Origin: Candidatus Micrarchaeota archaeon | GTDB taxonomy: Archaea; Micrarchaeota; Micrarchaeia; Burarchaeales; JBFMAP01 | Assembly (NCBI GenBank): GCA_964632135.1 | Contig: CAZWEI010000001.1 | Span: forward strand, 29,883 to 93,882 | DNA length: 64,000 nt | Direction of reading: 5' to 3' | Part shown: one piece after another, positions 39,755 through 53,665 of the stretch | Position numbering within the stretch: position 1 is the stretch's first letter | Layout of the letters: each line of letters opens with the position of its first letter | Translations under genes and position numbers: made by a program | The notes under the pieces: model-generated | Databases searched by the model: none | What the model was told of the DNA's origin: nothing | The model's input: the letters and a program-made list of their open reading frames with translations, nothing else

Positions 39755-40003
39755 ATGAAAATCGAAGTGACCACGATACCGAACTCCAGAGAATTCGGAG
39801 TCGAGCGAAGGGACGGAAGGTTTGTTGTTCGAGTGAAAGAAAAGGCGGAAAGGGGAAGGGCGAACATCGAGCTCGTGAAGAAAATGCGCGAGATGCTCGG
39901 GTGCGGCGTGCGAATCGCGCGCGGCGCAGGCTCGCGGAAAAAATTGCTTGAAGTTGATGTTGATGAGGAAACGTTCCTTGCTCGAACAGGAATTGAAAAA
40001 TAA
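39755..40003 (+). CDS. DUF167/YggU-family small protein
   Basis: MKIEVTTIPNSREFGVERRDGRFVVRVKEKAERGRANIELVKKMREMLGCGVRIARGAGSRKK fits the DUF167 pattern. Confidence 0.45.
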   Translation: MKIEVTTIPNSREFGVERRDGRFVVRVKEKAERGRANIELVKKMREMLGCGVRIARGAGSRKKLLEVDVDEETFLARTGIEK

Positions 40004-40379
40004 ACTGAAGATTCTGAAGAGGACGCTCCGCGAGATTGAGGAGAGCCGCGCGGTTGTGCTCGTGGAGGGAAAAAAAGACAGGGAAGCGCTTGAAAGAATT
40101 GGGGTGAAGAACAGGATTGTGCTCGTGGGAATGGGGGCGCGCTCAGCATGCGAGAGGCTCTCTGGCTTTGATGAGGCGGTAATACTCGCCGACTTCGACG
40201 AGAGGGGCGAGGAGATCGCGCGAGAAATTGAGGAGACGCTCGGGGCGTGCAACATCCGTCCAAACACCGAGTACGGGAGAAGGCTCCGCTACGTCTTGGG
40301 CGTGCGGAACTTCGAGGAGATTGAAGGCAAACTCGAGGAGTTTGAGAAGAAATGCAAGGAGAATGGAATTGATTTGTGA
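39948..40379 (+). CDS. small Toprim-domain protein (start uncertain; overlaps the preceding ORF)
   Basis: VVLVEGKKDREALERIG...VILADFDERGEEIA is the E...DxD pattern of Toprim. Confidence 0.45.
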   Translation: MKLMLMRKRSLLEQELKNKLKILKRTLREIEESRAVVLVEGKKDREALERIGVKNRIVLVGMGARSACERLSGFDEAVILADFDERGEEIAREIEETLGACNIRPNTEYGRRLRYVLGVRNFEEIEGKLEEFEKKCKENGIDL

Positions 40380-40445
40380 AAGTTGCGGAAGGAAATTGAA
40401 AAAATTGAATGTTGTAAAATGAATTGAAAACCAAAGGTGAGAAAA

Positions 40446-41753
40446 ATGGCCAAGACATACGTTGACACTGTGAAATACGTCGTATACGCGAATATTGAGA
40501 TTGGAGGGATGGTTGAAAAGCCTGACGTGGTGGGCGCTGTTTTCGGGCAGACCGAGGGCCTGCTCGGGGACGAGCTCGACCTGCGCGAACTTCAGAAAAA
40601 CGGAAGGATCGGGAGGATAGAGGTTGATATACAGGTGAGGAGCGGGAAGAGCGTCGGGAAAATCATGCTCCCGTCGAGCCTGGATATGGTCGAGACCAGC
40701 ATACTTGCGGCAGCGCTCGAGACGGTCGACCGGGTCGGACCGTGCGACGCGAAAATACATGTTGAGAAGATAGAGGACACGCGGAACGTGAAGAGAAAGG
40801 CGGTCGTGGACAGGGCGAAGAGCCTGCTGAAGACCCTTCTCGCGAACGAGATACCGGAAAGCAGGGAGATATCCGAGATGGTGCGGCAGGAAGTGAAGAT
40901 TGCGGAGATAAACGAGTACGGGCCAGAGAAACTGCCGTGCGGGCCGAACATAGCCACATACGAGTCGATAGTAATAGTCGAAGGGCGCGCGGACGTGCTG
41001 AACCTCCTGAAGAACGACATAAACAACGTGATAGCGGTCGGAGGCGCGAACGTGCCGAGAACTATCGCTGCGCTCTGCAGGGAGAAGGAGGTCACGCTGT
41101 TTCTCGACGGGGACAGGGGCGGGGACATAATACTCCGCGAACTTACGAACGTCGCGGACGTGGATTATGTCGCGCGCGCGCCGTACGGAAAGGAGGTCGA
41201 GGAGCTCACGCGCAAGGAGTTAATCAAGTGCATGAGGAGCAGGGTTCCTATAGAGCAGGTTGATGGCGTTACAAAAAGGCAGAGGGAGCCTAACGAGCGC
41301 GGGGAGCGGCCGGAGCGTTCAGAGCGCGCGGAACGAGGGGAGCGGTTCGAGCGGCACGAGCGCGTCGAGACGATAGCGGATATTGCTAAGGAGCCTGCGC
41401 AGTCAAGACAAGCCGTGCAAGCACAATTGCAACCACCTGAGCCTCAGCAGCCACTGGCGAGCGAGCCGCCGGCAGCGCTCATGAACAGCCTGAATGAATT
41501 GGAGAACACGCTGCGCGCGCGGCTGTACGACGAGCAATTGAATTTGAAGAGCGAGATTCCCGTGCGCGACCTCATAAGAAACCTGGGCGAAGGCGAGGGC
41601 GGAATCCACGCCATCGTCCTGGATGGGATAATCACGCAGAGGCTCGTTGATTTGAGCGAGAGCAAAAACGTGAAGATGCTCGTCGGGGTAAAATTGGGGA
41701 ATGTTTTCAGAAAATCGGAAAAGGTGGCAGTCGCGATTAAGAACGCCGCGTAG
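40446..41753 (+). CDS. dnaG: archaeal DNA primase DnaG (Toprim-type)
   Basis: N-terminal AKTYVDTVKYVVYANIEIGGMVEKPDVVGAVFGQTEGLL, Toprim IVEGRADV...LDGDRGG, and an acidic/repetitive linker. Confidence 0.85.
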   Translation: MAKTYVDTVKYVVYANIEIGGMVEKPDVVGAVFGQTEGLLGDELDLRELQKNGRIGRIEVDIQVRSGKSVGKIMLPSSLDMVETSILAAALETVDRVGPCDAKIHVEKIEDTRNVKRKAVVDRAKSLLKTLLANEIPESREISEMVRQEVKIAEINEYGPEKLPCGPNIATYESIVIVEGRADVLNLLKNDINNVIAVGGANVPRTIAALCREKEVTLFLDGDRGGDIILRELTNVADVDYVARAPYGKEVEELTRKELIKCMRSRVPIEQVDGVTKRQREPNERGERPERSERAERGERFERHERVETIADIAKEPAQSRQAVQAQLQPPEPQQPLASEPPAALMNSLNELENTLRARLYDEQLNLKSEIPVRDLIRNLGEGEGGIHAIVLDGIITQRLVDLSESKNVKMLVGVKLGNVFRKSEKVAVAIKNAA

Positions 41754-42024: not shown

Positions 42025-42180
42025 TGAAAGTGGGCTCGCCCGGGAATCCGGAACAGCAATTGATGGTTTTCTATCGAACCGGGAGTTTTCACCGTGTAAG
42101 GGTGACGTCTTACCACTGCCGGCCTGCCGACAATCTGGCGCGAGGCAGCAGGCCTTCGACTACGAGCCCGGTGAATTGTT
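42025..42180 (+). ncRNA. candidate structured ncRNA in a 227-nt gap (possibly SRP RNA domain IV-like); strand and identity uncertain
   Basis: Closing helix gggctcg/cgagccc; internal hairpins tcacc-gtgtaag-ggtga and ggcctgcc...ggcag(c)aggcc; a GCGA tetraloop and an AGCAG stretch. The gap is unusually long for a terminator plus promoter. Confidence 0.2.
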
Positions 42181-42224: not shown

Positions 42225-43676
42225 TCACGCTACCTCGCTCTCGTCTGATTTCCTGCGCTTTGCCCCGTAGTCGCTCATTCCCGCGCGCCACCACGAGTCG
42301 TACCTCTCGCTCACCTGCTCCTCTATGCTCCTTCCGCGCTTGAGCGCCGCGCGCACGTGCTTCTCGTCTATCAACTCGCTGCCATCCGTGACCGCGAGGT
42401 CGCCTGCCAACTTTATTATCCCGCTGAGGTCCCGCAGGCGCAGCGTGAGGCCGACGACGTCGTCTATGGATTTTGCGCGCGCCCTCGCCTCGTCAAGAAG
42501 CACGGCAACTGCCTTCGAGTTTGCGTGTGGAATCCTTCCATCTTTCCTTATCTCCTGCGCGATGAACTGCACGAGTTTTTTCCTGTTCTCATCAGTGTCG
42601 GGCATCGTGGTGCCCAGCAGCACCTCGTATCCGTTGCCCAGTATGCGCGAGCGCAGGGGTGGGAGGAGATGATCCATGTCATTCGTGTTGAGCGCGCCTA
42701 TGAGTATGAAGTCGCACGGCACGTTGTCAACGCGTATTGATGCGCCTGTGCTCGATGCGTTGCGCCCGGCAATCGGGAATTTCTTCTCCTGCATGGCTGT
42801 CAGAAGATATCTCTGCAAATATCCAAGCGTCGCTATCTCATCAATAAATAAAACGCCCTCGTGCGCCTCGTGAATCGCGCCCGGCACCACGCGCAAGTAA
42901 GCGGCCATTCCAATCTCCGGATGACCGCCGTATGGATCGTGCTTCACATCGCCGACAAGTTCGGTCTCGCTCGCGCCCGTCGCCTGAATGAACGTGTTTC
43001 GCTGAAGAGGAAGAATTATTTTGCGCGGGCGCTTTGATTCTATTTCTTCAATTTTCCGCAAAGATGACTGGTCATAGATGCGAATCTTTCCCTCCTCGTC
43101 GCGCTCGTAAAGAACGACCTCCTCGCGCCCGTCCGGGAATGCGCGCGTCGTGTGAACGCGGTCCTCCCTCACCTCGCCCATGAACCCGAAAATCAAATCG
43201 TCAAATGGGGACAACTCGCGGCGGTATTTATCCGCCCCGCACTTTGGGCAGACCGGCGTGTTGAAGTTGCTGAGGTTCCCGCACCTTTTGCACCTGAACC
43301 CGAGCCTCTCGGCGACGAACGACGGAACCTCGGAAGCGGAAAGCATCTTGCCCTCGAATTCCTTCGGCTTCCTATCCTTCACTATTTTCTCGCGGTCGCG
43401 CACCTCAATCACTGGCCGCTCTGGGTTTTCCGGATTGTGGAGAACGGAGACCTCCTGCGTCGGCTGCGGGAGTATGAATGCAATCGCCTGCGCGAGCATG
43501 CTCTTCCCTGTGCCCGGAGGGCCGACGAGAAGGAGATGACGGCGCTGCCTCGCGACCACGCGCGCTATCTTAACTACCTCGTCCTGCCCGATTATCATTT
43601 CTAGAGGATTTTTAGGCAGAATGATTTCCCGCGTGCTCTCGAAATCGAGGAAGCCGGCGCGCGCGTCTGGTTCCAT
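42225..43676 (-). CDS. LonB-type AAA+ ATPase without the protease domain; a zinc ribbon replaces the LonB membrane anchor
   Basis: QDEVVKIARVVARQRRHLLLVGPPGTGKSMLAQAIAFILP closely matches the archaeal LonB N-terminus. A CKRCGN...CPKCG insert sits between Walker A and B. Sensor-2-like RLRDLSGIIKLAGDLA...KHV is present. The protein ends there, with no Ser-Lys protease domain. Confidence 0.65.
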   Translation of the reverse strand: MEPDARAGFLDFESTREIILPKNPLEMIIGQDEVVKIARVVARQRRHLLLVGPPGTGKSMLAQAIAFILPQPTQEVSVLHNPENPERPVIEVRDREKIVKDRKPKEFEGKMLSASEVPSFVAERLGFRCKRCGNLSNFNTPVCPKCGADKYRRELSPFDDLIFGFMGEVREDRVHTTRAFPDGREEVVLYERDEEGKIRIYDQSSLRKIEEIESKRPRKIILPLQRNTFIQATGASETELVGDVKHDPYGGHPEIGMAAYLRVVPGAIHEAHEGVLFIDEIATLGYLQRYLLTAMQEKKFPIAGRNASSTGASIRVDNVPCDFILIGALNTNDMDHLLPPLRSRILGNGYEVLLGTTMPDTDENRKKLVQFIAQEIRKDGRIPHANSKAVAVLLDEARARAKSIDDVVGLTLRLRDLSGIIKLAGDLAVTDGSELIDEKHVRAALKRGRSIEEQVSERYDSWWRAGMSDYGAKRRKSDESEVA

Positions 43677-43722
43677 GTGAATAGTTCAGCACAAAAATTT
43701 TATATATTTTTGGAAATGCTCG

Positions 43723-46143
43723 CTACTGTAATAAAAGGCATTTTCCCTCACCTAAGTTACAATCTGAGTAGCAGCAGTCCCAATCATCGCTACAATCTCC
43801 TCCATCGGGAACACACGCAACACCACCACATATACCGCTAGTGCATGATACGCCAGGGCAACAGTCGCTATCCTGAGTGCACTCTTCGCCGTTAATTCGA
43901 CATGACTTACATTTGTAACCTGTAGTATCGCAATAGCCCGCATATTGGACGTCCTGAATGTCGTCGTAGGATCCGCAGCATTGGTACACCCCTATTTCAC
44001 CAAACAATATGCGCTCTTGCTCCAGGGTAAAAGAGGATGCGGCGCCGCGCTGGTCCTTAGGCGTAAACAGCATAACTCCTGTGCCTGGACCTTTGGATAG
44101 CCCAACTTGACAATTGGAGCCTGTAGCAACACAATACGCGCATGTGTTGTTGGTACCGTAACAAAACGCTCCATCCTCGTGATAGCAACACTCATCACTG
44201 GTTGCACACATTCTGCCTAATGCCGTGCATTCCGGGCAGATATTGGCTGCGTCACACGTAACGGCGGGGTTGCAGCAGTCCCTGTATTTTTCACCGGTTC
44301 CACTGTCAACACCACAACCCCAATAACCCGTAAGAGTGCAGTTCTGGCACGTTCCTTCGTAGCAAGCCGCGTCGTATCCATAGCCCATCGTATTTTCATT
44401 ATAACCGCAGCAGTCCTCGTTTTGCGTGCAGCTCTCGGTCAAGGCGCTGCATAATGGCGGAATGTAGCGGCACGTGCAGTCCGTCGCGTTTACCGCCCAG
44501 TTTATGGGACATGTTACGCCGGAGCAGTCGCACTGGCAGTTACTGTCGTTGCGCTTTCCGCCCGCTGTTTCGTTGCAGGAGTTCTGGCAGTCGCATGAGC
44601 AGTCGGTAGTGAGGTGTATGGGTTGGTTGTTGCACATCGTTTCTGAAATCTGCTGCTGTCTTGCGGGGTCGCCGCAGTTGCACGCGCAGTCCATGTTGTA
44701 CGTGCCTCCGTGGCAGTCGTTTGAGCAGTGGCAGACGCAGTACTCGTCAAGAGCCCCGCCAAACGCGCACGTCGCATTCGTGCAGTCGCAGGTGCAGTCA
44801 GGATAAGGCGCCTGCTGCTCGCCGTTGCAGCTCCAGTAACAAGACGAGGACGAGTATGAACAACCCCATCCCTCCTTGCAGCAAAGCCCGTTTGGATTGC
44901 AGTAAAAGCCAGTGCAGCATGTTTCGTTGTCGCTTTCGTTGTAAGGACCTACTTTGCAATTTGACGGGTGGTGCGTGCATATGGATTTGGGGAATTTGAA
45001 TTCGCATCGTTCGGTCGTGGAGTTGCAGGTATAGCCTGGGCAGCACGGGGCAGAGGAATTGCAGGGCAATGGATTTGCGCAATGAACGCAAGTCCCATGG
45101 GAATCAGTGCAGCAGTTTTGAGTACTGTTCCAAACCGAACCGTACGGACAGCAACTAGACGTAGGGCAGGTTGCTGGATATGCTACGGGATCGCATGTTC
45201 TTTCCGCCGGGCATGCAAAAACGCACACCCCGGCGCTGTTGGTACAGCATTTCTGGGTCGCATTCCAAACAGCGCCGGCTGGACAGCAGCCCGAGGAGGG
45301 GCAGGTTATCGGATAGAGCATATGGCTGCACATTCTTTTTGCAGGGCATGACGGAGTTGTTGCGCATTCCCCGGTGCCGTCTAAGCAGCAGGGTTCAGGG
45401 GAGGAACCGCTGGCACCCCAACTGGTGCCGGACGGACAGCAGCCTGAGGATGGGCACGTCGCGGGATTAGCCGCTGGATTACACGTTCTTTCTATTGGGC
45501 AGAAAGAAACGCAAACTCCGGCGCTGTTTGTGCAGCAGTTTTGCGTTGTGTTCCAAATTGTGCCGACAGGGCAGCAATCCGTCGCGGGGCATGTTGCGGG
45601 GTGAGCGGAATGGCTGCACTCTCTCGCTGTCGGGCATATGAATAGGCACGTTCCGAAGTTGTCAAGGCAGCAATTTTGTGTATTATTCCAAACCGTAAAT
45701 TTTGGACAACAGCCGGAGGATGGACAAGTTTCAGGGTATGCCGACGGATTGCACCGCATGTCAGGCAGACAAAGAGATGAAATGCATTTCATTTGATGGC
45801 AAACAGAATCAGGACAGCATGCGTATGGATCTCCTTGAGGCACGCCAACTTTGCATTTGGGCGGATTTGAACAAGAGATGTAGGCGCATATTCCGTATTT
45901 GTCAGTGCAGCAGTTCTGAACAGTGTCCCAAACCGTGTTTGTAGGGCAGCATCCTGATGGAGGACACACCGCGGGGTATGCCGATGGGTCGCATTGCCGA
46001 GCAGTTGGACAAGTTGGCTTGACCGGAACAACCCCGCTTGTTTTGCATAGGAGCGCGATTAGGAGAAGCAGGATCATGCCTCCTACAAGAACCCCGAGTT
46101 TCTCTTGCGGTGAAGAGCCGGGACGGGCAGGCATTGGTTCCAT
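43723..46143 (-). CDS. 806-aa secreted or anchored Cys-rich tandem-repeat glycoprotein
   Basis: N-terminal signal/anchor; at least six ~45-aa repeats of the form C..A.P..CP.SGCCP.G..WN.TQNCCT.S.G.CV (visible also as ~135-bp DNA repeats); about 110 Cys in total; many N-x-S/T sequons. Confidence 0.55.
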   Translation of the reverse strand: MEPMPARPGSSPQEKLGVLVGGMILLLLIALLCKTSGVVPVKPTCPTARQCDPSAYPAVCPPSGCCPTNTVWDTVQNCCTDKYGICAYISCSNPPKCKVGVPQGDPYACCPDSVCHQMKCISSLCLPDMRCNPSAYPETCPSSGCCPKFTVWNNTQNCCLDNFGTCLFICPTARECSHSAHPATCPATDCCPVGTIWNTTQNCCTNSAGVCVSFCPIERTCNPAANPATCPSSGCCPSGTSWGASGSSPEPCCLDGTGECATTPSCPAKRMCSHMLYPITCPSSGCCPAGAVWNATQKCCTNSAGVCVFACPAERTCDPVAYPATCPTSSCCPYGSVWNSTQNCCTDSHGTCVHCANPLPCNSSAPCCPGYTCNSTTERCEFKFPKSICTHHPSNCKVGPYNESDNETCCTGFYCNPNGLCCKEGWGCSYSSSSCYWSCNGEQQAPYPDCTCDCTNATCAFGGALDEYCVCHCSNDCHGGTYNMDCACNCGDPARQQQISETMCNNQPIHLTTDCSCDCQNSCNETAGGKRNDSNCQCDCSGVTCPINWAVNATDCTCRYIPPLCSALTESCTQNEDCCGYNENTMGYGYDAACYEGTCQNCTLTGYWGCGVDSGTGEKYRDCCNPAVTCDAANICPECTALGRMCATSDECCYHEDGAFCYGTNNTCAYCVATGSNCQVGLSKGPGTGVMLFTPKDQRGAASSFTLEQERILFGEIGVYQCCGSYDDIQDVQYAGYCDTTGYKCKSCRINGEECTQDSDCCPGVSCTSGICGGVACVPDGGDCSDDWDCCYSDCNLGEGKCLLLQ
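45100..46020. repeat. tandem ~135-bp coding repeats (Cys-rich module array)
   Basis: Repeated DNA segments such as ...gcaaactccggcgctgtttgtgcagcagttttgcgttgtgttccaaa... and ...gcacaccccggcgctgttggtacagcatttctgggtcgcattccaaa.... Confidence 0.6.
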
Positions 46144-46187
46144 ACGGTTTACAACCCCGAGTGTTTATCTTTTTATTTGTTTATAAA

Positions 46188-49100
46188 CTATTCGGCGCGG
46201 CATTTGTACTCATCGTACAACTGCATTATGCGCGAGGGATCGCACATCGTGCTGTTCGTCTCGTTTGCAGCGCACATCGTCATCGTCAATCCTTGCGAGC
46301 GGTAGTAATAGTCCGCGCATCCCTTGAACCATTCCTCGAATCCCTCCTTGCGCGCGTAAGCAGGCGGACCGGTGGTCAAACCGTAATTACCCGTGAGCGG
46401 CTGGCACGTGCCGTCCATCAGGCAGTATTGCGCGATTCCGGAAATCCCGGCGCCTGTGAGTTGGTATGTTTCTTTTTCGTACATTTCCGCGAACGCAGCG
46501 CCGACGCCTTTTCCGGCGCACGCGCCGACGCCCACGCCTTCCAGATTATAGGAGAGAATAACTGTCGGCTTTGTGTAATTGTACACCACGAACCTCGAAA
46601 GATTTTTAATCTCGTCCCACGCCCTGCTCGCGTTGCACACGCATTCTCCTCCTGTCTCCTCGCATATTGAACTCGTGTTCGCGAAAACGATGAAACCCAC
46701 CATGTCGGTGCTGTTGCGCGCGAGCCGCATTATGTTTTGTATATCAGCCTCTGTCGCGCCTGGAAGCCTGACCGCGAAAGTGGTCGTGCAGTTCGCGCAC
46801 TCTTTCGTGATGTTTTTCAATTGGTCCGCGATGCAGTTTTGATTTGAAAGGGGGATGGAGATGTCCTGCGTGAGAAGCGTGGGCCACGAGGGGCCGAACG
46901 GGTTGTATTTTTTGTAGTAGAACTTGTCCCAGAAAGGAGTCATGTACTCTGGATTGTTGTCAAGATAACTGTTCAGTTTTTGCGCGAGAGGAACAACGTC
47001 CGCCCCTGAGCAGGCGCCAGGGGCAAGAGTGATGAGGAGCGAGAGGCCGGTCGAGACGTCTGTTATTGTTATATCTACGGACGGCATCGTAATGCACTGC
47101 GTCTCGTTCGGCGCGAGGGAAATTAACGCAGGTAGCGGGGGCGGATTTGGCGCGAGCGAAAGTTGGTGGTTCCTGTTGTCCAGATTGTAGAAGCATATCC
47201 GCGTCCCTTCTTTCGCGCTCATATTCATCGAAGGCTCGAAGAGTTGGTCGATTATCGGGACCACGATGTCGTACGTGTAACTGACTATCCCCTCGCGGTT
47301 GTTGCTCACGCAGTCGATGAGCGTGTGCCTTCCCACATCTGGCGACCAGCAGTACGGGCTCGTCTGGTTTATGGTCGGGAGCAGGCTCGCGTTGTAGCCC
47401 CCTCCTGGACGCTCCTGGATGAGAAGGAGCCTGTACCCCCCTGCGTATGCGCCGCTCGCATTCCAGCAGACCGTGCTGCCCGGCGAAGTTGTCACGACCT
47501 CCTGCGAGAAGTTCATCTCAGCGAGGGAAACCTCTCTCGTGCCGCCGACAATCGGCATAGTCACATCAACGGTCATGCAGCCCATCTGGCTGCTGTCAAA
47601 GGTTGAAGGACAACTCACCTCAGGGACGTACAGCGTCATTCTTGTCGGCGGGGTTACGTCGCATATTCTTAAACTATAATCGCCTCCTCCGACATCCTCG
47701 AGTTGTATTTTCACTGCCGAGCGCGCGGGAACAACTACGTTTGGCGGCGAGACAGGAACGACCCACGCGTACTGGCCGGCAGGAAGGCCGGTGAAGCAAA
47801 CGCTATCATCCTCGTGCACGGATAGAGTGCTCCACGGGGACGGGCTGGTCAGATCCGGATCGTTCATATCTATGTCCGCGCCATAGTAGAATGTTTCCGT
47901 GGAGGAGCGTTTGCAGGTGGAAATACTTACGTGCGTGGCGAAGGTGAGCGCGATCGGGAAGGTCATGTTCGCGCCCGCAGCAAGGTGGTATTCCACGCCA
48001 TTGAGCGAGAACCATCTCGCATACGCGCCGCCGTTGTTGATAATTTTTGGAATCACCCTGCTGTAGCGCACCCCTTTATCAAGCATCGAATAGGAGCACC
48101 AGCAGAGATTCCACACGTTCTGGTCAGTGCAGTTGTCATAAACCCAGTCGCCGCAAAAGTCATCTATGCATTTGTCAAACGGCTGCTGCAGGGTGAGGTT
48201 GATCGCCGAGGTATCGGTGAACTCGCTTGAGTTCAGAACGTTCATATTGAATTTCTTGTGATCGCCAAAAATATCGCGGTAATAGACTTCATACGAGCCG
48301 ACCGGGAAGTTGAAGCACTGGCCGTTGCTGAATCTGAAGCCATTGAAGAAATTGTAATCTATCGAAAGGACTCTGTCCTTGTACCCGCGGTTTTTGAAGT
48401 AGAGCTCGTTATTGTTTGTCGTGAGCGTTGAGGGAGTGAACGGGGCGAATGTGAGGCTTATGATCGCGCTCAGGTTTTGGACATCTACAGTATATCTGCG
48501 CGCGGACACGTCGTCTTCGAGCACGTACGAGCCAGCAGAGATGTTTGAGACGTTGCGCGTTCCGCCTGGCGGGAGGGTTAGCGACCCTAGCCACGAGCCG
48601 CTCTGCGCGAGAGTGTGGCTCAAGCGGTCGATGTTCCTCCAGGAGACGTTGCTTCCCGCGGGCACGCCGTAATATTCATCGAGCAGCAGGCCGGAAATAT
48701 CAACGCGCATGGTCTCATCCGCGCCCCCGCTGTTGAAAACGAGCGCGGTCAGGACATCCTGATTCAGGAGGTCTTTCAGGTTCATCAGCGTGACAGTCCC
48801 TATGTCCCCGAAAACATCCTGGACCGCGAGCCCGAGGCTCAAATTCGATTCGGTCGCAGGGCCGATGAAATAAACGTCCTGCGAGAACGCCTTCGACTCC
48901 TGGATGATGAGCGTGCTCGTCGCGTTCGCGGTCGCATTGTCTGTTGCATTTATTGGATATTCGTACTCGTAGTAGAACTGCCTCACGCCTACTGTGGAGG
49001 GTACTGAAGACTCGAGGTCCCAGAAAATTCGCTGGTTCGGACTTACGGTCTGCCCGGTCCAAAAGTCCATTGGAACGTCCACTGTTCTGGTGCGCGCGAA

Positions 49101-51854
49101 CAACGTGTGATTGACATTATCCGCGTTTTCCCAATAAACCGTTTCATTGTTGTATACGTAAATCAGATTCGGATAGGTTCCTGCCGAGGTCATGAAAAAC
49201 TTCTTCTCCTGCGAACTCGTGATGATGAGCGTGTGGTTCTGGGTGATGTTCTCGGAACGCACGACATAATCGTAGTAGTAATGAATCCCCGCTGCGACCG
49301 AAGTGCAAATCACGCGCTCTGGCAGCACTATGCCGATTGACGTGATGTTGTGCTCGACATCATCCGAGTTTATGAGGCAGATGCTGCCGCCCGGAGGAAC
49401 GCTCACGTAATTCGGCGACGGACCGAGCATCGTGAGGTTTATGTTCGTAGGAAGCGTGGGGCTTACCGTTATAGTCGCGTTTGTTCGCGTGACATTGTCC
49501 CGAACACCATAAATTTGCAGGGACTCGTTGATGAGTGTAAAGCAGACCCTGCTCTTCGCGAGAACATCGAAAACAGCAGGAAGAGGCGGCAGGAAATTTG
49601 AAGTGAGGCGCCTGTCAAGCCTGCCCGGGTTTATGAAGCACAGTGTTGTATTTGAAACAAGCGCGAGATTGGAAGGCTTGAACGCAGGGTCCTGCAACCT
49701 GACCGTATATTCGGACGTTTTGCCCGTGACGTAGACGGTCACGAACGGCGGGGTGGAGATCGTTATGTTTAAGTAATAGCCCCTGGTTCCGCCGCCGGCG
49801 CAGGATACCGTCGCGTTTATGTCGATTATGTTGTACGCCCCGCGCTGATAGTTTGGAAGCTGGAATCCGCCCATCCAATTCTGTGAGCCGCAGACACAAA
49901 TGTTGTCATCCATCTGCGGACCGGCGGGCTGGCGGTTGATTAGCGTGTTCCCGCAATCGCTTATCAAGAACCCGCTCACGAGCACGCTCATCGCTTCAGG
50001 GGGGACGTATAAATTCAGCCTGTAGGACGCTGTCCCGCTCACGTCAGTTTCGTATTGCTGGAAAGAGAGCGCGGTGCTGTTCGTGCCCGCTGCATTGATG
50101 TCGTAGAAAATGTATGTTCCAGGCGTCCTGTCCTCATATGCACCGGAATACTGGTTGAGGAAAGACGCGCGCGACTGCCAGCAGCACGAGGAGCTGTTGG
50201 ACACTGAATGGATTTCTTTCGGCACAAGCATCTCGCCTTCAAGTTTGTACACGTGCAGGGTGTGCGATTTGCTCGCGTCGGTGTTGTTGAAGCAGACGTC
50301 GTCTCCCCATATTATTCCGACCTCCTCTGGGTTCGGGCCGCCTGCCGCAAGCTCGACCTTGTTGTTGATGCTCTTAACGAATATTGAGCCGTATGTGTCC
50401 GTGTTTATGTCGCGGAAAGCGTGTGGTCCTAGTTTTTTCATCGCGCCAGGCGGAAGTGTCAGGGTTCCGCCTGCGAGTACTGTTTGGGTTATGTCAGGCG
50501 TGGGCTCGGTGTCGTCTCCGAACCATAGTTCTATAATGTGGGCCTCCTCTGCGTTGTTTCGTATCGAGATGTTCTGCCCCTCTGAAACGACAAGGTCTGC
50601 GGGCATGAACGAGTCAGCATCGAGGTAGATGAAGCCTTCTGAACTTATCGCGAGCGTCGATTCGAGTCCTGTTTTTGCGTCAGTAACCGTGTATTCTTCG
50701 GCAGGCGGCGGGGAGAAGGTGTGGTTTAGCGTGAAGTTCGATGAGCACGTGAGCGCGCTCACGTTGAGATTTTCCTTCGGGCGCGGTCCTGAGAACGCGA
50801 GGGTGTGAACCGGTATCGTCGAGTTCGCGACGTTGTCCCAGCAGATGAGCGAGCCGTCCGTTATCGTTATTTCATCAGGCTCGAAAAGCGGGTCGCCGAC
50901 AGTCATCTCCGAAACTTTTTCAAGTTTCGGCTTGCAGTATTCCCTCGCGCTGAGGAAATCGTTGAAACTCGGGCCCTGGCCGAGCATGAAGTACTGGAGT
51001 TCCTTGAAAGGGTCGCGCGTAATCGCGTACAACTCGTTCGCCCCGCATGGAATTTCTGTGAGGAGAAGACCGCCCTGCAGAGTCGCCTCGTAGTGCACTG
51101 CGCACGAGCCCCAGAACGTGCGCGTCCCAGCCCGGTCGTTGCATTCGTACGCGACCTGCGCAGAATAACCGGACAGACATTCCGCGGTGCACCCGCTGGT
51201 CGTAACCGAGGTGGGGGGCAGTACGACCATGCAGCCGTAGCCGACGCACGGGGGCTTGTAAATTCTGTATGTATACGAAACTCCAAGATGCGTAACTGTC
51301 ACATCCTCATATTCGCACGTGCAACCGTTCGGGCTCTGGTCGGGTACAAGAGGACAGCAGTAATAATGCGCGCAGTGGGAGGAGTGGTGGGCCCAACTGC
51401 AGCAAAGGAAGCAGCCTCCGCACGCGCAGCCGTGAACCTCCCAGCCCAAGAAATCCATCGTGCCGATGCCCCCGCAGTTGCAGCAGTCGTCGCACGTCAT
51501 CCTCGTCCATTTTCCGGCATCGTTGCAGGAGTCATACGCGAAACAAGCATACATCGGCGCGCCCGTTGTCCTTATGTCCTTGCAGCTGTCGCCCCATTTC
51601 GTGTTGAACTCGCGCGGATCGAGCCCCTGCCCCTTGCTGGTGTATCCTCCGCTGCATTCCCAGCGCGTGTAGAGGGGCCTCTTCGCCCTCACCTGGCACA
51701 TGCACGTGGCGTTCTCGCACGAGGAGGTCGCCTCGATTCTGACCTCAATCGTGCTCGGCACGCTTGTGCGCGGCGTCATGTAAAGGCATCCGAACAAGAA
51801 TAGGAACACAAACGCGAGGCTGAAAAAAACCAATGGTGAGATTTCCCTTTTCAT
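46188..51854 (-). CDS. 1888-aa giant secreted surface (glyco)protein with lipobox-like signal peptide
   Basis: N-terminal FLFLFGC signal; a Cys-rich N-terminal ~250 aa; a long region with dozens of N-x-S/T sequons; no C-terminal TM anchor. The + frame is unbroken for 5.6 kb. Confidence 0.6.
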   Translation of the reverse strand: MKREISPLVFFSLAFVFLFLFGCLYMTPRTSVPSTIEVRIEATSSCENATCMCQVRAKRPLYTRWECSGGYTSKGQGLDPREFNTKWGDSCKDIRTTGAPMYACFAYDSCNDAGKWTRMTCDDCCNCGGIGTMDFLGWEVHGCACGGCFLCCSWAHHSSHCAHYYCCPLVPDQSPNGCTCEYEDVTVTHLGVSYTYRIYKPPCVGYGCMVVLPPTSVTTSGCTAECLSGYSAQVAYECNDRAGTRTFWGSCAVHYEATLQGGLLLTEIPCGANELYAITRDPFKELQYFMLGQGPSFNDFLSAREYCKPKLEKVSEMTVGDPLFEPDEITITDGSLICWDNVANSTIPVHTLAFSGPRPKENLNVSALTCSSNFTLNHTFSPPPAEEYTVTDAKTGLESTLAISSEGFIYLDADSFMPADLVVSEGQNISIRNNAEEAHIIELWFGDDTEPTPDITQTVLAGGTLTLPPGAMKKLGPHAFRDINTDTYGSIFVKSINNKVELAAGGPNPEEVGIIWGDDVCFNNTDASKSHTLHVYKLEGEMLVPKEIHSVSNSSSCCWQSRASFLNQYSGAYEDRTPGTYIFYDINAAGTNSTALSFQQYETDVSGTASYRLNLYVPPEAMSVLVSGFLISDCGNTLINRQPAGPQMDDNICVCGSQNWMGGFQLPNYQRGAYNIIDINATVSCAGGGTRGYYLNITISTPPFVTVYVTGKTSEYTVRLQDPAFKPSNLALVSNTTLCFINPGRLDRRLTSNFLPPLPAVFDVLAKSRVCFTLINESLQIYGVRDNVTRTNATITVSPTLPTNINLTMLGPSPNYVSVPPGGSICLINSDDVEHNITSIGIVLPERVICTSVAAGIHYYYDYVVRSENITQNHTLIITSSQEKKFFMTSAGTYPNLIYVYNNETVYWENADNVNHTLFARTRTVDVPMDFWTGQTVSPNQRIFWDLESSVPSTVGVRQFYYEYEYPINATDNATANATSTLIIQESKAFSQDVYFIGPATESNLSLGLAVQDVFGDIGTVTLMNLKDLLNQDVLTALVFNSGGADETMRVDISGLLLDEYYGVPAGSNVSWRNIDRLSHTLAQSGSWLGSLTLPPGGTRNVSNISAGSYVLEDDVSARRYTVDVQNLSAIISLTFAPFTPSTLTTNNNELYFKNRGYKDRVLSIDYNFFNGFRFSNGQCFNFPVGSYEVYYRDIFGDHKKFNMNVLNSSEFTDTSAINLTLQQPFDKCIDDFCGDWVYDNCTDQNVWNLCWCSYSMLDKGVRYSRVIPKIINNGGAYARWFSLNGVEYHLAAGANMTFPIALTFATHVSISTCKRSSTETFYYGADIDMNDPDLTSPSPWSTLSVHEDDSVCFTGLPAGQYAWVVPVSPPNVVVPARSAVKIQLEDVGGGDYSLRICDVTPPTRMTLYVPEVSCPSTFDSSQMGCMTVDVTMPIVGGTREVSLAEMNFSQEVVTTSPGSTVCWNASGAYAGGYRLLLIQERPGGGYNASLLPTINQTSPYCWSPDVGRHTLIDCVSNNREGIVSYTYDIVVPIIDQLFEPSMNMSAKEGTRICFYNLDNRNHQLSLAPNPPPLPALISLAPNETQCITMPSVDITITDVSTGLSLLITLAPGACSGADVVPLAQKLNSYLDNNPEYMTPFWDKFYYKKYNPFGPSWPTLLTQDISIPLSNQNCIADQLKNITKECANCTTTFAVRLPGATEADIQNIMRLARNSTDMVGFIVFANTSSICEETGGECVCNASRAWDEIKNLSRFVVYNYTKPTVILSYNLEGVGVGACAGKGVGAAFAEMYEKETYQLTGAGISGIAQYCLMDGTCQPLTGNYGLTTGPPAYARKEGFEEWFKGCADYYYRSQGLTMTMCAANETNSTMCDPSRIMQLYDEYKCRAE

Positions 51855-51863
51855 TTTTTCACT

Positions 51864-52601
51864 TCATTTGTTATTGAAACTCAGCAACTCCATGCTCCCG
51901 CCGCCGCCCTCGGCGGTGGAAACTATTTTTACTGGCACTGGGACTCCGTCGGCAATCCAGACTGTGCTCGCCTCCTCTGGAAGCGAATACACGCTCGTGT
52001 TGAAAACGCCGGCGGGAACGCGCACCTCCTCGTGCCTGAGCAGTTTCGCGCCCGCGAGGTTTTCCTTGCACATCACGCCGGGTATGCCGGATACGTCGGC
52101 GCAATCAGCCTCTGTGGTGAAAGGCTGGCCCCCTGCGAAGCTCATCGAGATTTCAAGCTTTTTGCACTTGAGCGTGTTTTTCTCGAGCCACATCAGACTA
52201 TTCATGCTCGCGCTCTGCCCCTGAACCGAAGCGTTCGTTGAAATCTCGACCTTGTACGTGTCGGTCCCGTCCACGAGTTCGGTTCCTATATAATTGTACG
52301 ATGTGCGCGCCTCCTGCGTGCCTCCATATTGGCTGTCCGCCGAAACCTTGTAGGCATACGAGAACTCGGGGGTCATGTTGAACAGCGGGGTGCAGTTCAT
52401 GGGCTCGGCGCGCGGCTTTTGAGTTCCGTTCTCCGAGAGGTTTCCCACGGAGAAAACTGAAAAATTCTCACCTGCACTCGGCATCGGAGGCGGCGTATAC
52501 GAGAGCGATGAGATGAGAACCAGTATCACCCCCAGAATTATTATCGCGAGAACCGTCATCTGCGCAACAACGCTCATGTTTCTCTGAACCAGTTTTTTCA
52601 C
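51864..52601 (-). CDS. N-terminally anchored hypothetical protein (operon member)
   Basis: MKKLVQRNMSVVAQMTVLAIIILGVILVLI anchor, then an extracellular domain with sequons and a C-terminal GGGGS. Confidence 0.4.
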   Translation of the reverse strand: MKKLVQRNMSVVAQMTVLAIIILGVILVLISSLSYTPPPMPSAGENFSVFSVGNLSENGTQKPRAEPMNCTPLFNMTPEFSYAYKVSADSQYGGTQEARTSYNYIGTELVDGTDTYKVEISTNASVQGQSASMNSLMWLEKNTLKCKKLEISMSFAGGQPFTTEADCADVSGIPGVMCKENLAGAKLLRHEEVRVPAGVFNTSVYSLPEEASTVWIADGVPVPVKIVSTAEGGGGSMELLSFNNK

Positions 52602-52615
52602 ATCAACACCTTCGC

Positions 52616-53641
52616 TTACAATATTTTAAATAAACTCCTGCCCATCTCGGAAACGTCCGCGCCAAGGACAGGCGCGATCGCGCGCACGAACGCGAACGTG
52701 ACCACGAGCACGACAATGGGGTAGAAGAACGCGTAGACTATCATGCTCACCGTCTGGCCCCCGAGGCCGGACGAGCCCATCGCCGCCTCTGCCTGCGCGA
52801 CCTTTATCAGCGTCGCGAACGCGGCTGGGTCGTTCGCGCATATGTTCGTGCTCATCGTTATCTGCGGGGCCTGGCATCCGGATGGCGGGGAGCCGGAACT
52901 CATCAGAATCACTACGAACATGAGCGGATATACGATGTAAAGGCCGATGGCGAGCGCGATCATGAGCGCGCCTGCGCCGCGCGTGTACGGGAATATTCGA
53001 AGTATGATTCCTATCGGCAGATAAACCGTGAACATCGCGGTCTCAACCCACTGGAGGAGGTTGTACTGGAAGTAGAGCGCGAGCGCGAGCCACGTGAGGC
53101 TGTTCGCCTTGTAGTGCGCCTCCACGATCATGCTGTACAGCGGATACGAGAACCATTTGAAAGGAATCGGAATCCGGAGTATGAACGGCGAGACGATGAT
53201 GTCGCTCGCGAGAAGCCGCTCTATCCCCGGCTTGTACGTCTCCTTGTATTTCGACTCGACGCACTTGAGCATCGCGCGCAAATATACATAACTCGCGTCG
53301 AACGGGCTCACCTTCGCGAGCCCCGCCATGCCCGGCACGACTATGCTGCCTGCGAAAATCTCCGTCTGATTTTGGATGAGGCCGACGCCGTAGGATTCGC
53401 CTGAAACTATTGTGAAAAGAAGGACCACGAGAATAATTGAAGCAAGCACCTGCGCTAGTTCGCTCTTCACCCATCTCCTGAGGTCCGGAAGCTCGAAAAA
53501 TTTCGAGAGCATGTACGCGAGCGCGACTATGAAAATCTGTATCATTATCGCGAGGAGCGCGATCGCAATCCAGCTCGCGTCGCCCAGGACGGTTTTTCCA
53601 AGGTCAGCCGCAGTCGTGTTCCACATAACATCATCTTTCAA
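52616..53641 (-). CDS. polytopic membrane protein, paralog family (NE[LIF]YQ / LPIG-LR-FP-TR / C-terminal LGxDVxI motifs), member 1
   Basis: VKSELAQV; YLPIGIILRIFPYTRGAGALMIALAIGLYIVYPL; C-terminal PVLGADVSEMGRSLFKIL. Confidence 0.55.
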   Translation of the reverse strand: MKDDVMWNTTAADLGKTVLGDASWIAIALLAIMIQIFIVALAYMLSKFFELPDLRRWVKSELAQVLASIILVVLLFTIVSGESYGVGLIQNQTEIFAGSIVVPGMAGLAKVSPFDASYVYLRAMLKCVESKYKETYKPGIERLLASDIIVSPFILRIPIPFKWFSYPLYSMIVEAHYKANSLTWLALALYFQYNLLQWVETAMFTVYLPIGIILRIFPYTRGAGALMIALAIGLYIVYPLMFVVILMSSGSPPSGCQAPQITMSTNICANDPAAFATLIKVAQAEAAMGSSGLGGQTVSMIVYAFFYPIVVLVVTFAFVRAIAPVLGADVSEMGRSLFKIL

Positions 53642-53665
53642 TCATATCCGATCATTGTCTTTATA

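What the first reader, a model, noticed from the sequence alone, without database searches (positions are those of the whole stretch)
42225..43676. LonB-type AAA+ ATPase that has lost both the protease domain and the membrane anchor (a zinc ribbon sits in the anchor position)
The N-terminal region and Walker A context are near-identical to archaeal LonB (RQRRHLLLVGPPGTGKSMLAQA..LP). In LonB a two-helix membrane anchor is inserted between Walker A and B. Here that position holds CKRCGN-x10-CPKCG. The protein stops after the sensor-2 helix, with no Ser-Lys protease domain. Sitting at the end of the giant-protein / membrane-paralog operon, it may serve as the unfoldase or motor of that system rather than as a quality-control protease.
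Basis: partly seen in the sequence, partly recalled or inferred. Interest (0 to 1): 0.6.

Follow-up and report, generated by a model that had tools for sequence, protein, structure and literature searches.

The report
Protease-less zinc-ribbon LonB paralog
This gene encodes a soluble relative of the archaeal membrane protease LonB that keeps the ATP-driven unfolding motor, carries a zinc-ribbon domain where the membrane anchor should be and has no protease; it belongs to an old, widespread and apparently unstudied archaeal family that is normally co-transcribed with DnaG and normally ends in a proteasome-docking-type tail, so it may be an overlooked partner of the proteasome.

Summary
ORF 42225-43676 (-) encodes a 483-aa LonB-type AAA+ ATPase with every catalytic and pore-loop residue intact. 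A roughly 130-aa domain containing CxxC-x10-CxxC replaces LonB's two-helix membrane anchor. No Lon protease domain exists in any frame of the window.

It is not a decayed LonB. It belongs to a separate, strongly conserved paralog clade (50/50 bootstraps) found in Micrarchaeota, Thermoplasmata (including T. acidophilum Q9HLX6, "Putative lon protease homolog"), Methanobacteria, Methanomassiliicoccales, Altiarchaeota and Asgard archaea. Canonical LonB coexists with it in these lineages.

Two family features emerged. dnaG lies directly upstream on the same strand in 35 of 37 informative non-Micrarchaeota loci. The flexible C-terminus ends in an HbYX-type motif (penultimate Tyr/Phe) in 27 of 27 non-Micrarchaeota members, against 1 of 28 canonical LonBs.

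The window's Micrarchaeota clade departs on both counts: its tail is [KS]-E-[VI]-x, and dnaG is adjacent but convergent.

The gene has its own BRE/TATA promoter and that adjacency is not conserved.

Best reading: a soluble unfoldase that hands substrates to a partner in trans, probably the 20S proteasome in most lineages. I found no paper describing this.

The parts
42225..43676 (-). Complete ORF, 483 aa: soluble LonB-type AAA+ ATPase of the zinc-ribbon, protease-less paralog family
43699..43711 (-). Archaeal BRE/TATA-like promoter element AAAAATATATAAA, with the TATA centred about 26 nt upstream of the ATG, predicting a leaderless, independently initiated transcript
   Evidence: Sequence read directly. 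The 13-mer occurs 3 times in the window against 0.07 expected. Promoter function is inferred, not shown.
43500..43523 (-). Walker A, GPPGTGKS (residues 52-59)
   Evidence: Invariant G52, P54, G55, G57, K58, S59
42999..43400 (-). Insert domain (residues 93-226) that occupies the position of LonB's membrane-anchor insert; compact alpha/beta domain with no TM segment
   Evidence: Two-block alignment to LonB. Insert-only AF2 model pLDDT 85.8. No significant PDB fold match, best E 0.09. 0 TM segments against 2 in canonical LonB.
43239..43292 (-). Zinc ribbon CKRCG-x10-CPKCG (residues 129-146)
   Evidence: Four Cys invariant in 62/62 and 42/42 family members across phyla. The only other Cys is C321. 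Metal binding is inferred.
42924..42950 (-). Pore-loop-1 segment GDVKHDPYGG (residues 243-251) with aromatic Y249
   Evidence: D243, H246, D247, P248 invariant in both classes. Y249 is Y in 41/42 and F in 1/42 of the ribbon class; F/L/Y in canonical LonB.
42837..42854 (-). Walker B, VLFIDE (residues 275-280)
   Evidence: D279 and E280 invariant
42645..42689 (-). Sensor-1 N330 through the arginine finger R342/R344 (PPLRSRI)
   Evidence: N330 42/42, R344 42/42
42336..42521 (-). AAA+ LID subdomain (residues 386-447) with sensor-2 R413/R415
   Evidence: Weak Pfam LonB_AAA-LID hit at 386-447. R413 and R415 42/42. Aligned to LonB up to residue 459.
42228..42335 (-). Post-LID helix with the conserved YDSWW[KR]AG motif, plus a disordered C-terminal tail ending S-E-V-A; it replaces the protease domain
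   Evidence: pLDDT below 50 for residues 471-483. The residue two before the C-terminus is E/D in 111/120 and the penultimate residue is V/I in 99/120 close homologs. Orthologs outside Micrarchaeota end in [G/S/M]-[Y/F]-x in 27/27.
40437..41753 (+). dnaG (archaeal Toprim DnaG), the family's ancestral operon partner; here adjacent but convergent
   Evidence: NCBIfam NF003108 equivalog, 514 bits against a 300-bit cutoff. dnaG lies directly upstream on the same strand in 38 of 51 informative family loci.

Best explanation
The gene encodes an active, soluble, ring-forming AAA+ protein unfoldase of the LonB lineage. It belongs to an old archaeal paralog family that databases hold under placeholder names (T. 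acidophilum Q9HLX6 and T. volcanium P58275, "Putative lon protease homolog"; Picrophilus Q6L1E9, "Protease La homolog type 2").

Proposed mechanism:
- Six subunits form a LonB-like ring.
- The zinc-ribbon insert domains sit where LonB's membrane anchors sit, on the substrate-entry face, and act as the substrate or adaptor receptor, comparable to the zinc-binding domain of ClpX.
- ATP hydrolysis drives the conserved DPY pore loops to pull a polypeptide through the pore.
- Because there is no built-in peptidase, the flexible C-terminal tail on the exit face docks the ring onto a separate partner.

In most lineages the tail ends in an HbYX-type motif, so the partner is most probably the 20S proteasome. 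That would make this family a third kind of archaeal proteasomal ATPase, alongside the classical AAA ATPases PAN, Cdc48 and AMA.

The family is ancestrally co-transcribed with dnaG, the primase-like protein that is also an exosome subunit. Its clients or regulation are therefore probably tied to DnaG.

In the window's Micrarchaeota clade the tail has been rewritten to [KS]-E-[VI]-x and the dnaG operon is mostly broken. Here the docking mode or the partner may have changed.

Shown: family membership, intact motifs, absence of TM segments and protease, tail conservation, dnaG linkage. Inferred: hexamer formation, zinc binding, orientation of the insert and tail, and any interaction with 20S or DnaG.
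For: LonB-type module:
- E 2e-86 to 3k1j/4zpx; TM 0.87 to the LonB ATPase chain.
- All ATPase and translocation residues invariant in 42/42: K58, Y249 (one F), D279/E280, N330, R344, R413/R415.

Separate ancient clade:
- 55% identity within the class, 38% between classes, bipartition 50/50.
- Both classes occur in the same phyla and in the same organism. T. acidophilum has LonB Ta1081, as cited in PMC4864567, and Q9HLX6.

Tail:
- Disordered in the AF2 model yet conserved.
- Penultimate Y/F in 27/27 non-Micrarchaeota members; 26/27 meet the published HbYX definition of a small or hydrophobic residue followed by Y/F (Forouzan 2012, PMC3493965).
- Canonical LonB: 1/28. Neighbouring proteins as background: 6.9%. 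Fisher p = 8e-15.
- T. acidophilum, T. volcanium, Picrophilus and Aciduliprofundum end in RSYE, RSYE, GIYN and DGYQ.
- The Micrarchaeota tail [ED][VIT]x occurs in 11-13 of 15 against a 1.2% background.

dnaG operon:
- Directly upstream on the same strand in 38/51 informative loci: Methanobacteria 5/5, Methanomassiliicoccales 9/9, Thermoplasmata 17/17, Altiarchaeota 1/1, Asgard 3/4.
- Stop/start overlaps of -4 and -19 nt are common.
- Control: dnaG lies near canonical LonB in 1/28 loci.

No solved structure and no dedicated NCBIfam model exist for the family.
Against: - The window's own protein ends S-E-V-A, which is not HbYX, so proteasome docking is least secure exactly here.
- No binding or activity data exist for any member.
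- No proteasome gene is a conserved neighbour.
- The proteasome model does not explain the dnaG operon by itself.
- A penultimate aromatic could serve another partner.
- The orientation of the insert and tail relative to the ring is inferred from LonB homology, not computed for a hexamer.
- Subscription literature (for example Iyer et al. 2004 on AAA+ classification, and the T. acidophilum genome and proteome papers) could not be searched, so prior mention cannot be excluded.
Confidence: 0.45

Rival explanations
1. Stand-alone unfoldase, chaperone or remodeller with no peptidase partner. The ring unfolds or disassembles clients such as DnaG or exosome assemblies, or aggregates, and releases them. 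The conserved tail binds an adaptor or regulates the ring itself.
For: The window's clade lacks the Tyr/Phe needed for canonical gate opening. No peptidase gene is a conserved neighbour. The dnaG operon points to a specific client and not to bulk proteolysis.
Against: Replacing a built-in protease by a flexible tail with a free C-terminus and a penultimate aromatic, in 27/27 members across five lineages, is the signature of docking onto a peptidase ring (definition in PMC3493965). All archaea are reported to have 20S proteasomes and HbYX ATPases.
Confidence: 0.25
2. Nucleic-acid-directed motor that works with DnaG. This would be a hexameric ATPase plus Toprim primase pair analogous to bacterial DnaB-DnaG, or an exosome-associated RNA/RNP translocase. 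The zinc ribbon would supply in trans the zinc-binding domain that archaeal DnaG lacks compared with bacterial DnaG.
For: The dnaG operon is conserved across phyla, often with overlapping stop/start codons. Zinc ribbons are common nucleic-acid binders, and the ribbon is flanked by conserved basic residues (FRCRRCG, ADKY[KR]). The class has a specific basic residue R305 in the second pore-loop region. RuvB, a DNA translocase, belongs to the same AAA+ clade (my own knowledge).
Against: The pore-loop-1 motif GDV[RK]HDPY is the LonB polypeptide-gripping loop, kept almost unchanged. Class-specific changes near it are acidic (S236, E237, E239, E270, E273), which would disfavour nucleic acid. Structural similarity to RuvB, MCM and ComM is 25 or more orders of magnitude weaker than to LonB. 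The HbYX-type tail has no role in this model.
Confidence: 0.2
3. One reading: the ATPase is the cytoplasmic motor or unfoldase of the adjacent operon of a giant protein, a Cys-rich protein and membrane paralogs (43723-59826).
For: The ATPase lies on the same strand, 46 nt downstream of the 806-aa Cys-rich gene. In L001 an unannotated 1281-aa protein also lies directly upstream of the ATPase.
Against: None of the operon proteins has a homolog next to the ATPase in 84 other loci, apart from weak hits about 9 kb away in L020. No such family appears among the conserved neighbours. The gene has its own BRE/TATA element. On the other side, synteny with other Micrarchaeota (ABC ATPase, CbiQ, Hjc, CBS, DnaG) shows the ATPase belongs to the housekeeping block, and the surface-protein operon is the local newcomer. 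The family exists in many lineages that lack such operons.
Confidence: 0.05
4. Artefact: a canonical LonB truncated by a frameshift, by assembly error or by recent pseudogenisation.
For: None beyond the short length.
Against: More than 120 clusters at 56-71% identity share the same 450-500-aa architecture. 49 GTDB species loci are complete, with conserved stop positions and tails. No protease remnant exists in any frame. All catalytic residues are under strict conservation.
Confidence: 0.01

Closest known systems
Archaeal LonB protease (T. onnurineus 3K1J/4ZPX; T. acidophilum Ta1081; TIGR00764; MEROPS S16.005)
   Same: Same AAA+ clade and fold (E 2e-86, TM 0.87). Same Walker A and B, DPx-aromatic pore loop, sensor-1, Arg finger, sensor-2 and LID. 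An insertion sits at the same point between Walker A and Walker B.
   Different: No transmembrane hairpin; a zinc-ribbon alpha/beta domain is there instead. No S16 Ser-Lys protease domain; a helix and a flexible conserved tail are there instead. Separate clade (38% against 55% identity, bootstrap 50/50). Class-specific charge reversals: ASETEL and HEAHEG in place of AHAGAL and HRAHKG. Different genomic context (dnaG operon).
Swiss-Prot "Putative lon protease homolog" entries (T. acidophilum Q9HLX6 / CAC11246.1; T. volcanium P58275) and Picrophilus Q6L1E9 "Protease La homolog type 2"
   Same: The same family as the window's protein: about 50% identity over the full length, ribbon, no TM, no protease, 490-495 aa.
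   Different: These orthologs keep the dnaG operon (19-nt overlap in T. acidophilum) and end in an HbYX-type tail (RSYE, GIYN). The window's protein has convergent dnaG and an S-E-V-A tail. They are named as proteases although they have no protease domain. I found no functional study.
Archaeal proteasomal AAA ATPases PAN, Cdc48/VAT and AMA (Forouzan et al. 2012, PMC3493965)
   Same: Proposed to work alike: a hexameric unfoldase without its own peptidase, an N-side substrate-recognition domain, and a flexible C-terminal HbYX tail that docks into 20S alpha-ring pockets.
   Different: Those are classical AAA proteins; this is an HCLR-clade (Lon) AAA+. Their census excluded non-classical AAA+ proteins and counted only one proteasomal ATPase in Thermoplasmata. 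The window's own tail is not HbYX. No interaction has been shown.
ClpX (bacterial unfoldase of ClpXP)
   Same: An analogy only: an HCLR-clade unfoldase lacking a protease, carrying a Cys4 zinc-binding domain for substrate and adaptor recognition, that docks on a separate peptidase.
   Different: In ClpX the zinc domain is N-terminal, not inserted between Walker A and Walker B. Docking uses IGF loops onto ClpP, not a C-terminal tail. The two are not orthologous.
LonC (Meiothermus taiwanensis MtaLonC, 4FW9)
   Same: A soluble Lon relative in which the inter-Walker insert is a soluble domain and not a membrane anchor. It is the second-best structural match (E 1e-12).
   Different: LonC took the opposite route: it kept the protease and lost ATPase activity. 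Its insert is a helical coiled coil without a zinc ribbon.

Membership tests
Archaeal LonB protease (TIGR00764 / MEROPS S16.005) | LonB-type AAA+ module (alpha/beta plus LID) with the LonB pore loop | tested here: met
   phmmer E 2e-86 to 3k1j/4zpx; Foldseek TM 0.87; motif table
Archaeal LonB protease (TIGR00764 / MEROPS S16.005) | Two-helix membrane anchor inserted between Walker A and Walker B | tested here: not met
   0 hydrophobic segments in the insert, against 2 in canonical LonB loci; a zinc ribbon is there instead
Archaeal LonB protease (TIGR00764 / MEROPS S16.005) | C-terminal S16 protease domain with a Ser-Lys dyad | tested here: not met
   No Lon_C hit. The profile is matched only to position 402 of 608. 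tblastn of protease domains against the window gives only noise.
Archaeal LonB protease (TIGR00764 / MEROPS S16.005) | Score above the curated NCBIfam cutoff (516.6 bits) | tested here: not met
   363.4 bits. The Methanothermobacter and Thermoplasma orthologs are also below the cutoff.
Zinc-ribbon protease-less LonB paralog family (Q9HLX6 / P58275 type) | CxxC-x10-12-CxxC ribbon in the inter-Walker insert, no TM, no protease, 450-520 aa | tested here: met
Zinc-ribbon protease-less LonB paralog family (Q9HLX6 / P58275 type) | Placement in the ribbon clade and not the canonical LonB clade | tested here: met
   NJ bipartition 50/50 bootstraps; 49-67% identity over residues 10-477 to members from other phyla
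Zinc-ribbon protease-less LonB paralog family (Q9HLX6 / P58275 type) | dnaG directly upstream on the same strand (typical of the family, not strictly defining) | tested here: not met
   In the window dnaG (40437-41753, +) is the neighbouring conserved gene but is convergent, 471 nt away. Only 3 of 14 Micrarchaeota loci keep the operon.
Zinc-ribbon protease-less LonB paralog family (Q9HLX6 / P58275 type) | C-terminal [small/hydrophobic]-[Y/F]-x tail (typical of the family) | tested here: not met
   The window ends S-E-V-A. Its clade has [KS]-E-[VI]-x.
Proteasomal ATPases (functional class: PAN / Cdc48 / AMA) | C-terminal HbYX motif as defined by Forouzan 2012 | tested here: not met
   Not met by the window's protein. 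Met by 26 of 27 orthologs outside Micrarchaeota (definition).
Proteasomal ATPases (functional class: PAN / Cdc48 / AMA) | Physical binding to the 20S proteasome and gate opening | not testable with these tools
   Needs biochemistry or complex modelling. The supplement listing the Ta20S pulldown hits is not held.
   The Pfam Mg_chelatase hit covers only residues 25-75 around Walker A. ComM and BchI score E 1e-8 to 1e-7 with TM 0.3 or less, against LonB at 1e-36.
Defence-system Lon-like ATPases (BREX BrxL and similar) | Match to a PADLOC model over the protein | tested here: not met
   Only short generic AAA+ motif matches (RtcR, IetA); no BrxL

The most novel reading that the evidence does not exclude
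The zinc-ribbon LonB paralogs are a previously unrecognised, non-classical class of archaeal proteasome-activating unfoldases. They are LonB motors that gave up their own protease and membrane anchor to feed the 20S proteasome through an HbYX tail. They are hard-wired by an operon to DnaG, giving a second genomic link between RNA/DNA-processing machinery (exosome/primase) and regulated proteolysis. T. acidophilum, long thought to have Cdc48 as its only proteasomal ATPase, would then have a second one. The Micrarchaeota, including this window, would have re-coded the docking tail to E-[VI]-x, implying either a co-evolved alpha-ring pocket or a switch to a new partner.
Probability: 0.3. Interest if true: 0.85.

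Novelty: new variant of a known kind. Interest (0 to 1): 0.68.

Why it matters
Lon proteases are defined in the literature as single chains that carry both an ATPase and a protease (PMC9569914). This is a conserved lineage that breaks that rule while keeping the motor in perfect condition, at 50-55% identity between phyla as distant as Micrarchaeota, Methanobacteria and Asgard archaea.

If the HbYX-type tail does what it does in PAN, Cdc48 and AMA, the archaeal proteasome has an overlooked regulator from a different AAA+ clade. That includes Thermoplasma acidophilum, the reference organism for 20S biochemistry, so the idea is directly testable with existing reagents.

The near-universal dnaG operon also gives a concrete handle on the long-unclear cellular role of archaeal DnaG.

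For DPANN biology, the rewritten tail and the broken operon in Micrarchaeota mark a lineage-specific change in a core proteostasis component.

Tried and rejected
- Frameshift or decayed protease downstream: rejected. tblastn with four Lon protease domains finds nothing, and the space is filled by a tRNA gene.
- Different AAA+ clade (ComM, Mg-chelatase, RuvB, MCM, sigma-54 activators): rejected. These are motif-level Pfam hits only, and the structural matches are far weaker.
- The 575-aa Lon_C protein near the ATPase in L002/L003 as a split-off protease half: rejected. It has a signal peptide and a C-terminal TM anchor, so it is a surface protease. It is absent from the window and is not a conserved neighbour.
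- Motor of the neighbouring surface-protein operon: rejected on conservation and promoter evidence.
- Defence-system component: no PADLOC membership.
- The M. smithii "Lon-like protease" (PMC4864567): a different family, 77 kDa with a degenerate protease domain.
- Pattern search with the insert-only alignment failed because it was too divergent.
- Looking for PAN, Cdc48 or 20S genes in the Micrarchaeota DNA I held, to compare tails and pockets: none present.
- Ten literature searches found no paper linking a LonB-like ATPase to HbYX or to dnaG. The supplements of Forouzan 2012 and ProEnd are not held.
Full report
**1. What is there**

The minus strand carries an ATG-to-TGA ORF at 42225..43676 encoding 483 aa.

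Its closest solved relative is the membrane protease LonB of Thermococcus onnurineus (3k1j/4zpx, E 2e-86). The alignment falls into two blocks: query 10-92 with Lon 25-108, and query 227-459 with Lon 194-411+.

The NCBIfam LonB equivalog model matches only to position about 402 of 608 and scores 363 bits against a cutoff of 516.6. Pfam finds no Lon_C domain.

An AlphaFold model built on 62 homologs is confident (pLDDT 86.5, pTM 0.77). It superposes on the LonB ATPase chain with TM 0.87 (E 1e-33 to 1e-36). LonC follows at 1e-12. ComM, MCM, RuvB and BchI score 1e-8 or worse.

**2. The insert and the missing domains**

Residues 93-226 replace LonB residues 109-193, the membrane-anchor insert.
- The segment has no hydrophobic stretch. 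Canonical LonBs analysed the same way show two TM helices there.
- It contains C129-x2-C132-x10-C143-x2-C146. The four Cys are invariant in 62 close homologs, in distant members from Aciduliprofundum, Thorarchaeota and Korarchaeota, and in 42 of 42 members from GTDB species genomes. The protein has only one other Cys.
- The whole insert, not only the ribbon, is a conserved folded domain. An insert-only model reaches pLDDT 85.8 and has no significant structural neighbour in the PDB, best E 0.09.

After the LID the chain continues with one conserved helix (YDSWW[KR]AG) and a disordered 13-residue tail.

No Lon protease domain exists in any frame of the 64-kb window. tblastn with three canonical and one surface-type domain gives a best E of 0.39.

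The 228 bp downstream are occupied by a tRNA-Val(UAC) gene interrupted by two introns. A 73-aa two-TM ORF and convergent dnaG follow.

**3. It is a family, not an accident**

More than 120 clusters at 90% identity match at 56-71% identity. All are 450-530 aa, almost all come from Micrarchaeota, and they are named "AAA family ATPase", "ATP-binding protein" or "Archaeal Lon protease".

A scan of one genome per GTDB species returned 80 loci that fall into two clean classes:

| Class | Loci | Features | Lineages |
|---|---|---|---|
| 1 | 49 | Ribbon, no TM, no protease, 450-520 aa | Micrarchaeota, Methanobacteriaceae/Methanothermobacter, Methanomassiliicoccales, Thermoplasmata, Altiarchaeota, Asgard (Jord-, Thor-, Promethearchaeota) |
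| 2 | 28 | Two TM helices, protease domain (blastp 1e-57 to 1e-99), 630-700 aa | Eight Micrarchaeota loci, plus Methanobacteria, Thermoplasmata and Altiarchaeota among others |

On 411 shared columns, identity is 55% within Class 1, 57% within Class 2 and 38% between them. The two classes form a bipartition in 50 of 50 NJ bootstraps.

The family includes cultivated organisms:
- T. acidophilum CAC11246.1 / Q9HLX6 and T. volcanium P58275, both Swiss-Prot "Putative lon protease homolog"
- Picrophilus Q6L1E9, "Protease La homolog type 2"
- Aciduliprofundum boonei WP_008084136.1

T. acidophilum also has the canonical LonB Ta1081, as cited in PMC4864567. So the two paralogs coexist in one cell. "Lost the protease and the anchor" is therefore true as comparative anatomy, but the event is ancient.

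**4. The motor is intact**

The following are invariant in 42 of 42 Class 1 sequences:
- Walker A K58
- the pore-loop segment D243/H246/D247/P248 with aromatic Y249 (one F)
- Walker B D279/E280
- sensor-1 N330
- R342/R344
- sensor-2 R413/R415

Class 1 also has its own signatures next to the pore loop. It reads ASETEL and HEAHEG where LonB has AHAGAL and HRAHKG, and it has R305-N306 where LonB has Q-S.

Retention of the LonB polypeptide-gripping loop argues that the substrate is still protein.

**5. A conserved C-terminal tail**

In the 120 close homologs the antepenultimate residue is E/D in 111, the penultimate residue is V/I in 99, and the last residue is small.

Outside Micrarchaeota the tail is different and striking:
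- Methanobacteria: ...DRSYM
- Methanomassiliicoccales: ...D[SQN]MF[HNS]
- Thermoplasmata: ...GGYG, ...RSY[EQ], ...GYR
- Altiarchaeota: ...KSYG
- Asgard: ...DYFF, ...DYYL, ...RYG
- T. acidophilum and T. volcanium: ...RSYE

The counts:

| Group | Penultimate Tyr/Phe |
|---|---|
| Class 1, non-Micrarchaeota | 27/27 (26/27 meet the HbYX definition) |
| Canonical LonB | 1/28 |
| 669 neighbouring proteins (background) | 6.9% |

Fisher p = 8e-15. The HbYX definition used is that of Forouzan et al.: a small or hydrophobic residue followed by Tyr/Phe (PMC3493965).

Micrarchaeota have Y in 1 of 15 and V/I/T in 13 of 15. The [ED][VIT]x background is 1.2%.

HbYX tails are how PAN, Cdc48 and AMA dock into the alpha-ring pockets of the 20S proteasome and open its gate. 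That study analysed classical AAA proteins only, never mentions Lon, and counts a single proteasomal ATPase in Thermoplasmata. The ProEnd HbYX database paper does not mention Lon either.

**6. The conserved neighbour is dnaG, not the giant-protein operon**

I clustered all neighbours within 10 kb of 52 Class 1 loci. Exactly one family was shared across lineages. It is archaeal DnaG, and the window's copy at 40437-41753 scores 514 bits on the NCBIfam equivalog.

A tblastn recount shows dnaG directly upstream on the same strand in 38 of 51 informative loci:

| Lineage | dnaG operon |
|---|---|
| Methanobacteria | 5/5 |
| Methanomassiliicoccales | 9/9 |
| Thermoplasmata | 17/17 |
| Altiarchaeota | 1/1 |
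| Asgard | 3/4 |
| Micrarchaeota | 3/14 |

- Gaps run from -28 to about 120 nt, with frequent 4- or 19-nt overlaps. T. acidophilum has a 19-nt overlap.
- As a control, dnaG lies near canonical LonB in 1 of 28 loci, about 9 kb away and on the opposite strand.
- In the window dnaG is still the next conserved gene, but it is convergent, 471 nt away. The block on that side (ABC ATPase, CbiQ, Hjc, CBS, small Toprim protein, DnaG) is syntenic with other Micrarchaeota. The ATPase therefore seems to have been inverted locally.

The upstream minus-strand cluster (43723-59826) consists of membrane or secreted proteins without Pfam matches: six mutual paralogs, a 245-aa protein, a 1888-aa protein and an 806-aa protein with 16% Cys. 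None has a homolog beside the ATPase elsewhere, apart from weak hits about 9 kb away in L020.

The 46-nt spacer before the ATPase contains AAAAATATATAAA, centred about 26 nt before the ATG. This 13-mer occurs three times in the window against 0.07 expected. The other two copies lie upstream of the thermosome gene and at the head of the operon.

**7. How it most likely works**

*Shown:* a LonB-clade AAA+ module with all catalytic and translocation residues; a soluble zinc-ribbon domain in the anchor position; no peptidase; a conserved flexible tail; a dnaG operon in most lineages.

*Inferred from LonB and AAA+ knowledge:*
- a hexameric ring
- the insert domains on the substrate-entry face, where LonB's anchors emerge, acting as substrate or adaptor receptors (compare the ClpX zinc-binding domain)
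- the tail on the exit face, where LonB's protease sits

The simplest mechanism is an unfoldase that delivers substrates to a peptidase in trans. For the Tyr/Phe-tailed majority, the 20S proteasome is the obvious candidate.

The dnaG operon suggests that DnaG, or complexes containing it, is a client, cofactor or co-regulated partner. DnaG is reported as an exosome subunit (PMC2643942).

For the window's clade the E-[VI]-x tail and the eroded operon leave the partner open.

I put 0.45 on this composite explanation, about 0.85 on "active soluble LonB-type unfoldase", and about 0.3 on proteasome docking being true for the family.

Rivals, with confidence:
- a partner-less remodeller (0.25)
- a DnaG-coupled nucleic-acid motor (0.2)
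- the operon-motor idea (0.05)
- artefact (0.01)

**8. Novelty and limits**

Databases already hold the family under placeholder names, some wrongly calling it a protease or peptidase. There is no dedicated NCBIfam model and no solved structure.

Ten full-text searches found no paper that describes a protease-less LonB paralog, its dnaG operon or its HbYX-type tail.
- The Lon classification literature states that all Lons contain both domains (PMC9569914).
- A Cuniculiplasma proteome lists two expressed Lon-annotated proteins without comment (PMC7285479).

Subscription papers could not be searched, so an earlier mention, for example in AAA+ classification work, cannot be excluded.

No interaction was or could be tested here.

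Noticed in passing
window 42031..42169 (-): A tRNA-Val(UAC) gene interrupted by two non-canonical introns, about 32 nt in the D region and about 27-28 nt in the T loop. ARAGORN and Rfam miss it as it stands. ARAGORN calls tRNA-Val(tac) in 7,491 in-silico double-deletion variants. This fits the multi-intron tRNAs and broad-specificity splicing endonucleases reported for ARMAN/Micrarchaeota (from memory). L004 carries a 395-aa tRNA_int_endo gene.
   Followed up: partly
window 43723..59826 (-), TATA-like element at 59913..59925: An operon of membrane or secreted proteins with no Pfam, PADLOC or other matches: six mutually paralogous polytopic proteins (584, 302, 448, 361, 328 and 341 aa), a 245-aa single-TM protein, a 1888-aa giant protein with an N-terminal anchor, and an 806-aa protein that is 16% Cys with repeated CP...CCP modules. 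It is not conserved next to the ATPase in other genomes.
   Followed up: partly
L002 / L003 13705..15432: A 575-aa protein with a signal peptide, a Lon_C (S16) protease domain keeping the DGPSGG serine motif, a helical region and a C-terminal TM anchor. This is a surface-exposed Lon-like protease, 2.3 kb from the ribbon ATPase in one Micrarchaeota lineage. It is absent from the window.
   Followed up: partly
proteins P0128 and P0135 (metagenomic, 442-443 aa): Degenerate paralogs of the ribbon ATPase. They keep the ribbon and the insert, but Walker B DE has become SD or PD, the DPY pore loop is lost and there is no C-terminal tail. The N-terminal half of P0128 is nearly identical to that of P0109. 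They may be inactive partner subunits.
   Followed up: no
L070 (Thermococcaceae canonical LonB): This is the only canonical LonB among 28 whose C-terminus ends in an HbYX-like L-Y-T.
   Followed up: no
L036 (Candidatus Jordarchaeum) about 12689..14029: A Cdc48-type double-AAA gene lies about 6 kb downstream of the ribbon ATPase. This is one of the few non-Micrarchaeota loci without the dnaG operon.
   Followed up: no
window about 20000..30000: A low-GC stretch (0.44-0.48 against about 0.54) with a DDE transposase (23080..24372) and a Schlafen AlbA_2 / HATPase_c_4 protein (26894..28345) that matches pAgo-associated PADLOC models. It is possibly an integrated island.
   Followed up: no
window 32460..34619 (-) and 39948..40379 (+): A 719-aa DEAD/DEAH helicase with a C-terminal MrfA zinc-binding domain, and a 143-aa stand-alone Toprim protein (PRK04017-like) immediately upstream of dnaG. 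The small Toprim gene also precedes dnaG in L002.
   Followed up: no
L085 (T. acidophilum AL139299.1) 4673..6019 and 6001..7482: In the reference T. acidophilum genome dnaG and the ribbon ATPase overlap by 19 nt, with hisS directly downstream. The ATPase is annotated as "conserved hypothetical protein", "Putative lon protease homolog" or "Lon protease family protein" although it has no protease domain.
   Followed up: yes
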